Origin: Eledone cirrhosa
Taxonomy: Eukaryota
DNA length: 64,000 bases
Assembly (NCBI GenBank): GCA_964016885.1
Contig: OZ024752.1
Location: 39,742,001 to 39,806,000 of the forward strand
Reading direction: 5' to 3'
In this document: piece by piece, positions 6,723 through 62,787 of the stretch
Position numbering within the stretch: position 1 is the first letter of the stretch
How the letters are laid out: every line of letters starts with the position of its first letter
Program-made: the position numbers and the translations under genes
The notes under the pieces: generated by a model
What the model was told of the DNA's origin: nothing
Seen by the model: the letters and a program-made list of their open reading frames with translations, nothing else
The model's database searches: none

Positions 6723-6908
6723 ATACGTGTACAAGCTGCAAATGTACAAAATTCCAAAAGTTCAACTAATCGTGTTTTGTTGGTGAATGTAAATCAAAAC
6801 ATTAAACCTCCATATTTTATATCAACAACTGCTCAGATCACCCTACTTGAAACTATGCCTTTGGGAAAGATATCTTTAAAAATTGATCTTATTGATCCAG
6901 ACAATGAG
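6723..6908 (+). CDS. cadherin exon 1 in window (long, 62 aa)
   Basis: ttttccag|[32 protein letters not shown]...LLETMPLG...IDPDNE|gtaaaa. Confidence 0.88.

Positions 6909-62787: not shown

What the first reader, a model, noticed from the sequence alone, without database searches (positions are those of the whole stretch)
6723..62787. Cadherin built from strictly alternating long and short phase-0 exons offset from the domain boundaries
Seen: all 28 introns are phase 0, and 15 long exons alternate with 14 short ones. Each long exon spans the end of one EC repeat, the linker and the next repeat up to DxD. Each short exon encodes the middle strands. Established: clustered protocadherins typically encode the ectodomain in one large exon, so this differs. 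Inference: any long+short pair can be duplicated or skipped in frame, giving a length-tunable ectodomain with chimeric EC domains.
Basis: partly seen in the sequence, partly recalled or inferred. Interest (0 to 1): 0.7.

Follow-up and report, generated by a model that had tools for sequence, protein, structure and literature searches.

The report
Giant 85-domain mollusc tether cadherin

Summary
Observation confirmed: 15 long and 14 short exons alternate, and all 28 introns are GT-AG and phase 0. Six junctions are seen in a spliced contig. The pattern runs far beyond the window: 148 phase-0 exons inside a 182-exon, 442-kb gene model of 9,219 aa with 85 cadherin (EC) domains. This is probably the sucker-enriched octopus CDHX (77 EC in print; its sequence was not seen). 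Its ends follow the PCDH15/Cad99C plan: EC1-9, then two EC domains, a membrane-adjacent domain, one helix and a PDZ tail. It has 74 extra domains inserted at EC9. These lack the DRE and DxNDN motifs but keep the site-3 calcium ligands, as in the flexible one-calcium PCDH15 EC5-6 linker. The 'tunable length' reading is weakly supported. The repeats are old (26% mean identity). An oyster model matches 59 of them in order, and one 18.4-kb contig fits inclusion of every exon from the middle of the window to the stop. In-frame loss of whole modules appears only in gene models: about 54-57 modules in two freshwater mussels and one in an oyster model. Related arrays occur in a brachiopod and a nemertean, so this is not a cephalopod novelty.

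The parts
1..64000 (+). Middle of a 182-exon gene model (G000:C12; window coordinates -149871 to 292117; 9,219 aa; 85 EC). The window holds residues 2583-4129, repeat units 16-30 of 74
6723..6908 (+). long exon L1 (strands F-G, linker, A-B)
11444..11560 (+). short exon S1 (strands C-E); weakest call
12449..12631 (+). long exon L2
15288..15425 (+). short exon S2
19863..20045 (+). long exon L3
21664..21798 (+). short exon S3
23210..23386 (+). long exon L4 (lacks DxD)
27736..27864 (+). short exon S4
28996..29184 (+). long exon L5
30894..31016 (+). short exon S5
31860..32045 (+). long exon L6 (weak donor; phase-blind score preferred a phase-1 site)
34555..34677 (+). short exon S6
36203..36388 (+). 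long exon L7; donor seen spliced
37154..37285 (+). short exon S7; both ends seen spliced
38323..38511 (+). long exon L8; both ends seen spliced
41634..41762 (+). short exon S8; both ends seen spliced
41900..42085 (+). long exon L9; both ends seen spliced
43249..43392 (+). short exon S9; both ends seen spliced
43843..44034 (+). long exon L10; acceptor seen spliced
47280..47408 (+). short exon S10
48724..48909 (+). long exon L11
49810..49953 (+). short exon S11
51819..52007 (+). long exon L12
53457..53588 (+). short exon S12
55171..55359 (+). long exon L13 (phase-blind score preferred a phase-1 acceptor)
58583..58720 (+). short exon S13
59891..60079 (+). long exon L14
60409..60540 (+). short exon S14
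62602..62787 (+). long exon L15

Best explanation
The window is the middle of a gene predicted to encode a single-pass cadherin of 85 domains built on the PCDH15/Cad99C plan; its alternating phase-0 exons likely record ancient tandem copying of one domain with two internal introns, and the protein likely works as a fixed-length, flexible cell-surface tether. Shown: the exon pattern; six spliced junctions; in-order orthology of repeats with bivalves and gastropods; loss of DRE and DxNDN with DxD and the F-strand Asp kept. Predicted: EC1-8 with mostly canonical calcium linkers form the binding tip; 74 array linkers each bind one calcium (site 3), as PCDH15 EC5-6 does, and so bend; a calcium-free kink follows at EC83-84; then come a membrane-adjacent ferredoxin-like domain, one helix and a class I PDZ end. 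Stretched length would be about 380 nm (85 x 4.5 nm). Inferred: the array is an amplified EC9, which in PCDH15 keeps its upper calcium ligands and lacks its lower ones. Also inferred: the protein tethers or spaces apical microvilli, or ties them to an overlying cuticle or matrix, as Cad99C acts on microvilli; it is probably the sucker-enriched CDHX.
For: Gene model open from a signal-peptide ATG to the stop; intron phases mixed at both ends (N-terminal 16/3/3, C-terminal 3/2/6 for phases 0/1/2) but 148 of 148 phase 0 in the array. Spliced contig: 18,349 nt from the start of L7, against 18,045 predicted coding nt, leaves 304 nt of UTR, with AATAAA at +292. Age: paralogous units 26% mean and 43% maximum identity, with period 2, 6 and 12 self-similarity. 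Order: oyster K1QB61 aligns to residues 2580-9199 at 3,088 bits against at most 1,947 for shifted registers; 59 units lie on one diagonal, mean z 2.45 against 0.80 next; Solemya, Gigantopelta, Patella and Babylonia give 2.18-2.44 against at most 0.94. Shared introns: 12 of 16 ends of indels between oyster models lie within 2 aa of an octopus exon border, chance about 9.5% each. Calcium motifs in 75 array hits: DxNDN 0, DRE 1, Arg/Lys in the linker 62, DxD 59, F-strand Asp 62; all four site-3 side chains in 51 of 74 linkers; controls Fat4 26 of 34, Dachsous 20 of 26 and CDH23 18 of 26 canonical. PCDH15 EC5-6 has this pattern and binds one calcium in flexible poses (PMC7547225 passages). PCDH15 plan: a full-length mussel orthologue aligns to PCDH15 EC1-7 in one stretch, 170 bits, and to EC8-9 next. 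A model of the Argonauta orthologue's C-terminus (mean pLDDT 71) matches pig PCDH15 EC10-MAD12 at Z 15.5, rmsd 4.9, 274 aligned, and its top Foldseek hit is PCDH15. The tail ends ETTTIL; Cad99C ends SEVETTTEL (PMC2171266 passage).
Against: Function is inferred from relatives only: no tissue, binding or knockdown data here. Only 6 of 28 window junctions were seen directly, and the length fit is one sum that a skipped pair plus a longer UTR could mimic. Unit-by-unit orthology is noisy: the positional oyster unit ranks first in 21 of 58 and in the top three in 39 of 58. Units 1-15 are not covered by any long orthologue, since most models are N-terminal fragments. Two freshwater-mussel models have only about 30 EC, so length is not fixed everywhere. 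The nemertean array shows no clear register (z 0.73 against 0.64). Pfam's PCDH15 membrane-adjacent family was not hit by any of 13 members. Many cadherin chains tie with PCDH15 in Z (15-17). A second PCDH15-like gene fragment exists in G000, so orthology to PCDH15 is open. The count is 85 EC against 77 reported for CDHX.
Confidence: 0.7

Rival explanations
1. Regulated skipping of long+short pairs makes many ectodomain lengths within one animal.
For: All 148 array introns are phase 0. Two mussel models join long exon 6 to short exon 60 or 63, which could be spliced short isoforms of a long gene rather than deletions. One oyster model lacks exactly one short+long pair (104 aa), and oyster isoforms vary by 3 aa at long|short junctions.
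Against: One spliced contig carries seven consecutive exons and fits full inclusion to the UTR. The three oyster RefSeq isoforms held are 3,267-3,270 aa. Repeat order is conserved across classes. The 104-aa gap is in one UniRef model only and may be a prediction error.
Confidence: 0.12
2. The ectodomain is cut near the membrane and shed as a long structural fibre into cuticle, mucus or adhesive, rather than acting as an anchored tether.
For: An R-x-K/R-R site (furin consensus, recalled) lies in a loop of EC84 in this gene and in five orthologues: 6 of 12 sequences checked.
Against: The site is missing in 6 of 12, including Octopus bimaculoides and Argonauta. It lies inside a domain, so a cut may leave the halves together. 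The cytoplasmic tail and PDZ end are well conserved.
Confidence: 0.2
3. It is a mechanosensory link, a very long tip-link equivalent on ciliated or microvillar receptor cells of suckers and statocysts.
For: It has the PCDH15 end architecture. PCDH15's low-calcium linkers are proposed elastic elements (PMC7547225 and PMC5120219 passages). Sucker enrichment is reported for the 77-EC gene (PMC6339937 passage).
Against: Orthologues of the same register occur in oysters and limpets. The fly orthologue acts on follicle-cell microvilli. A second PCDH15-like gene in G000 could hold this role. A long, soft chain would pass force poorly (inference).
Confidence: 0.15
4. It is a Fat4 or CELSR-type polarity cadherin, as the database names of its orthologues say.
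For: Source names 'protocadherin Fat 4' and 'CELSR2-like'; the top summed PDB score goes to CELSR1.
Against: No EGF or laminin-G family in any of 13 members at E up to 0.1. There is a single helix with a short membrane-adjacent domain. Fat4 has canonical linkers and this array has none.
Confidence: 0.03

Closest known systems
Octopus CDHX (77-EC cadherin, high in suckers; Wang and Ragsdale 2017, not held; known here only from passages in PMC6339937, PMC6110919, PMC6062618)
   Same: Giant octopod cadherin of similar size. The O. bimaculoides protein XP_052824185.1 is colinear with the last 1,100 aa at 60% identity. The transmembrane exon has a single match in G000.
   Different: 85 EC counted here against 77. 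The citing papers call CDHX unique or a cephalopod novelty, while in-register orthologues occur in bivalves and gastropods and related arrays in Lingula and Tubulanus. Whether the original review already says so could not be read.
Vertebrate PCDH15 / Drosophila Cad99C (11 EC, membrane-adjacent domain, PDZ tail)
   Same: EC1-9 in register; calcium-free linker before the last two EC; ferredoxin-like membrane-adjacent domain; tail ending in T-x-L.
   Different: 74 extra domains at EC9; 74 predicted one-calcium linkers in a row; a furin-like site in the EC10-equivalent loop in half the orthologues; one-to-one orthology not established.
PCDH15 EC5-6 partial calcium-free linker (PMC7547225)
   Same: DRE lost, DxNDN altered, DxD and top Asp kept.
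   Different: A single linker in PCDH15, against the rule for the whole array here. A linker Arg/Lys is present in 62 of 75; whether it stands in for a calcium ion is untested.
Clustered protocadherins (octopus and vertebrate)
   Same: EC fold only.
   Different: These have 6-7 EC (PMC6339937 passage), with the ectodomain on one large exon (recalled). Here 85 EC lie on about 175 exons.
Intron-rich ancestral cadherin genes (type III classical cadherins, PMC5473995 passages)
   Same: About two introns per EC and deeply conserved intron positions (eight introns over EC10-13).
   Different: Those introns do not repeat in a strict two-exon module, as far as the passages read show.

Membership tests
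PCDH15/Cad99C | N-terminal EC repeats in register with PCDH15 | tested here: met
   Mussel orthologue 115-840 aligns to PCDH15 89-789 as one stretch, 170 bits; EC8-9 follow. This gene's EC2-3 exon hits PCDH15 best, weakly, E 0.0075.
PCDH15/Cad99C | 11 EC repeats | tested here: not met
   85 EC = 9 + 74 + 2.
PCDH15/Cad99C | Ferredoxin-like membrane-adjacent domain after the last EC | tested here: met
   Model residues 278-593 match 6bxz at Z 15.5, rmsd 4.9, 274 aligned. Fold level only; Pfam's family for it was not hit.
PCDH15/Cad99C | Calcium-free linker before the last two EC (EC9-10) | tested here: met
   The EC83-84 linker and EC84 lack DxNDN, DxD and the top Asp in the model sequence; PCDH15 pattern from PMC5120219.
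PCDH15/Cad99C | C-terminal class I PDZ-binding motif | tested here: met
   Ends ETTTIL; 8 of 12 sequences end T-x-x-L with TTIL or TTML; Cad99C motif.
PCDH15/Cad99C | One-to-one orthology in a gene tree | not tested
   No PCDH15 or Cad99C sequence was held for a tree; a paralogous fragment lies on G000:C889.
Octopus CDHX | About 77 EC | tested here: inconclusive
   85 counted in this genome from an exon model; species and counting method differ.
Octopus CDHX | Sequence identity with the published CDHX | not testable with these tools
   The review and the 2015 genome paper are not held.
Octopus CDHX | High expression in suckers | not testable with these tools
   Run X4 has no tissue or library record.
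Clustered protocadherins | 6-7 EC on one large exon | tested here: not met
   Two exons per EC over 75 EC.
Fat/Fat4 and CELSR | EGF and laminin-G domains after the EC chain | tested here: not met
   None in 13 of 13 members at E up to 0.1; the model runs EC, short domain, helix.
Canonical three-calcium cadherin chain | DRE and DxNDN at each linker | tested here: not met
   DxNDN 0 of 75 and DRE 1 of 75 in the array; present in the N-terminal EC.
Splicing-based diversity arrays (Dscam-like, recalled) | Alternative or skipped exons in transcripts | tested here: inconclusive
   One contig includes every exon in the stretch laid; contigs cannot show absence of rare forms.

The most novel reading that the evidence does not exclude
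Lophotrochozoans carry an ancient PCDH15-derived molecular rope: 85 domains and about 380 nm, longer than any cadherin count found in these searches. It was made by amplifying the half-calcium EC9 domain 75-fold into a chain of one-calcium hinges, each with an Arg standing in for a lost ion. Its repeat order has been held for more than 500 million years (date recalled) as a length ruler across wide microvillar or cuticle gaps, and freshwater mussels have retuned it to about 30 domains by in-frame module deletion or splicing.
Probability: 0.35. Interest if true: 0.75.

Novelty: new variant of a known kind. Interest (0 to 1): 0.52.

Why it matters
If right, the octopus sucker cadherin cited as a cephalopod novelty is an old lophotrochozoan gene hidden in databases as broken 'Fat 4-like' fragments. 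It is a PCDH15-type link stretched nearly eightfold. It gives cadherin biophysics a natural test of what dozens of one-calcium linkers in series do to stiffness and reach. The mussel short form would be a natural 'mini' version. The conserved repeat order says length or position matters. The exon pattern itself is an ordinary footprint of tandem duplication.

Tried and rejected
1. Run search: no RNA holder listed by record; X4 was judged RNA only from its spliced joints. No skip joint was among the 15 joints shown, but 388 were not shown and contigs drop rare variants, so this is no evidence. A direct check of contig coordinates at the 3' end of the gene is missing, so the full-inclusion claim rests on one length sum.
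2. A homologue search with one long exon found nothing among 30 candidates.
3. The single-sequence fold of P0002 failed (pLDDT 37) and was not used.
4. Best-hit mapping unit by unit was too noisy; diagonal statistics replaced it. Cheap-gap alignment of the mussel proteins gave scattered junctions; panel scoring replaced it.
5. A test of whether the copied unit was the exon pair or the whole domain was uninformative (correlations 0.04-0.18).
6. The representative search was swamped by ordinary cadherins; 6 of the 145 newly listed proteins belonged to this family. Its top hit, from Nematostella, has canonical linkers.
7. The Atlas search by features gave PCDH15, Cad99C, Cad87A and Cad89D clusters nearly tied at 0.95-0.96, which does not pick one.
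8. Literature: ten searches showed no title or abstract describing this gene's exon module, its PCDH15 plan or its orthologues outside cephalopods; most hits were seen as listings only. The two key papers are not held, and their supplements, where the cadherin catalogue would be, were not seen.
9. Earlier scan notes concern other genomes and one-domain-per-exon genes; not used.

Full report
Observation. The window is AT-rich animal DNA with microsatellites and lies on G000:C12. Fifteen long exons (177-192 nt) and 14 short exons (117-144 nt) alternate between 6723 and 62787. All have AG..GT ends and lengths divisible by three, and they join into an open 1,547-aa cadherin stretch. A generic, phase-blind splice score chose phase 0 for 28 of 29 acceptors and 28 of 29 donors in the window, and for 138 of 145 and 141 of 144 rows over the whole array, against 56% and 52% of all candidates. 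Run X4 carries an 18,414-nt contig that joins six predicted junctions exactly; run X1 shows none of them. S1 (11444-11560) is the weakest exon and lacks RNA support.

The whole gene. With flanking DNA fetched, the pattern continues for 148 exons: 74 short, 73 long and one fused long+short. Adding terminal exons gives an open model of 182 exons, 442 kb and 9,219 aa, from a signal peptide to a stop. Intron phases are mixed at both ends and purely 0 in the array. There are 85 EC domains: eight with mostly canonical linkers, 75 array domains (EC9-83) and two terminal ones, then a short domain, one helix and a tail ending ETTTIL. From the start of L7 the model predicts 18,045 coding nt. The contig holds 18,349, leaving 304 nt of UTR with AATAAA at +292. 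This fits inclusion of every downstream exon, but it is a single sum.

Relatives. The transmembrane exon finds Argonauta, Octopus and gastropod proteins, and the C-terminus finds bivalve and gastropod proteins named 'Fat 4-like'. Most are N-terminal fragments. The O. bimaculoides fragment is colinear at 60%. The oyster model K1QB61 aligns over 6,600 residues in one register. Fifty-nine of its repeats fall on one diagonal with units 16-74, covering the whole window (mean z 2.45 against 0.80), and Solemya, Gigantopelta, Patella and Babylonia behave alike. The signal is statistical: the positional partner ranks first in 21 of 58 units. Indels between oyster models mark oyster exon ends, and 12 of 16 such ends lie within 2 aa of octopus borders (chance about 9.5%), so the introns are likely shared. 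Lingula and Tubulanus have the same kind of array. Lingula is partly in register; Tubulanus is not clearly so. Within the octopus gene the repeats are 26% alike on average, at most 43%, with periods of 2, 6 and 12: old block duplications, none recent. Two freshwater-mussel models are full length but short, joining long exon 6 to short exon 60 or 63. These may be deletions, short isoforms or model errors. Oyster RefSeq isoforms differ only by a 3-aa DGS insert at long|short junctions.

Family plan. A mussel orthologue aligns to PCDH15 EC1-7 in one stretch and EC8-9 next. A model of the Argonauta C-terminus (mean pLDDT 71) matches PCDH15 EC10-MAD12 (Z 15.5, rmsd 4.9, 274 aligned). A profile of the C-terminus aligns to PCDH15 EC9-MAD12 from its start. 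The tail resembles that of Cad99C (PMC2171266, passages). So the gene reads as an 11-EC PCDH15/Cad99C frame with 74 domains added at EC9. A paralogous fragment on contig C889 leaves strict orthology open.

Calcium sites. In 75 array hits DxNDN occurs 0 times and DRE once. The linker has Arg or Lys in 62, DxD is kept in 59 and the F-strand Asp in 62; orthologues agree, while Fat4, Dachsous and CDH23 controls are mostly canonical. PCDH15 EC5-6 has this pattern, binds one calcium at site 3 and takes several poses (PMC7547225, passages). One two-calcium linker in PCDH24 stayed rigid in simulation (PMC8691648, passage), so flexibility here is a prediction. PCDH15 EC9 keeps its upper ligands and lacks its lower ones (PMC5120219, passages). 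Copies of such a domain in series would give exactly this pattern (inference).

Mechanism. Copying a domain that holds two phase-0 introns yields one exon between them and one spanning the domain border, so the offset needs no special purpose. The product is likely a fixed-length, bendable tether of about 380 nm (4.5 nm per EC from PMC8691648). It would have a PCDH15-like binding tip and a PDZ-linked base, acting at apical microvilli or between cells and cuticle. Cad99C, at 50 nm, was judged too short for gaps over 400 nm. This role is inferred, not shown. Shedding at a furin-like site (6 of 12 sequences), a sensory-link role and regulated skipping remain rivals.

What is known. A 77-EC octopus cadherin, high in suckers and called CDHX, is cited in three reviews read as passages. 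The source papers are not held, and their supplements were not seen. This gene is probably its orthologue. Intron-rich cadherin genes with conserved introns are known (PMC5473995, passages). The searches listed under Tried and rejected showed no account of the two-exon module, the PCDH15 plan, the one-calcium array or the cross-class register.

Verdict. The tunable-splicing idea is weakly supported. The more interesting result is an ancient, order-conserved giant PCDH15-type chain. New variant of a known kind; interest 0.52.

Noticed in passing
window 57580-57698 (+): A full-length 5S rRNA match (104 bits) inside the intron between L13 and S13.
   Followed up: no
window 8727-8796 (-) and 54429-54486 (+): Weak tRNA matches (34 and 31 bits) in introns; perhaps heads of short interspersed repeats.
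   Followed up: no
window 15852-17334, 25858-27697, 33099-34487, 44155-44936, 45213-46675, 50124-50893: Long intronic tandem arrays with units of 55, 14, 16, 128, 58 and 191 bases at 89-98% matches, right beside exons whose proteins are only about 26% alike.
   Followed up: no
window 9525-9959 and 39564-40630: Open frames that look like LINE reverse-transcriptase fragments (motif recalled, not tested).
   Followed up: no
L003:7227-7541: One fused long+short exon (315 nt): a single intron loss in the array.
   Followed up: partly
L005, about 4700-5200: At least three tandem intronic copies (about 188 bases each) of the 3' half of a short exon with its donor, each behind a TTTCAG; as 53-nt cryptic exons they would shift the frame.
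   Followed up: partly
window coordinates -122796 to -121476 (upstream loci): A long-type (195 nt) and short-type (129 nt) phase-0 exon pair also encodes canonical EC3/EC4, so the two intron positions likely predate the array.
   Followed up: partly
oyster proteins P0010, P0066, P0069: The same 3-aa insert DGS is optional at two separate long|short junctions, just after DxD: a possible microexon or tandem splice site that adds an acidic residue to a calcium loop.
   Followed up: partly
L046 (G000:C889:59971-60084, -): Fragment of a second PCDH15-like gene, 55-60% identical over the EC2-3 exon, with similar neighbouring exons.
   Followed up: partly
L045 (G000:C14, about 34189000-34192800, -): A 1,271-aa open frame of canonical cadherin repeats on one large exon; looks like flamingo/CELSR by recall.
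   Followed up: no
proteins P0027 and P0077: Patella vulgata has two members of this family, 37% identical, both colinear with the octopus C-terminal array.
   Followed up: partly
window coordinates about 263500 (downstream locus L030): A basic RKRR stretch in the F-G loop of EC84, where PCDH15 EC10 has its own loop insert; present in 6 of 12 sequences.
   Followed up: partly
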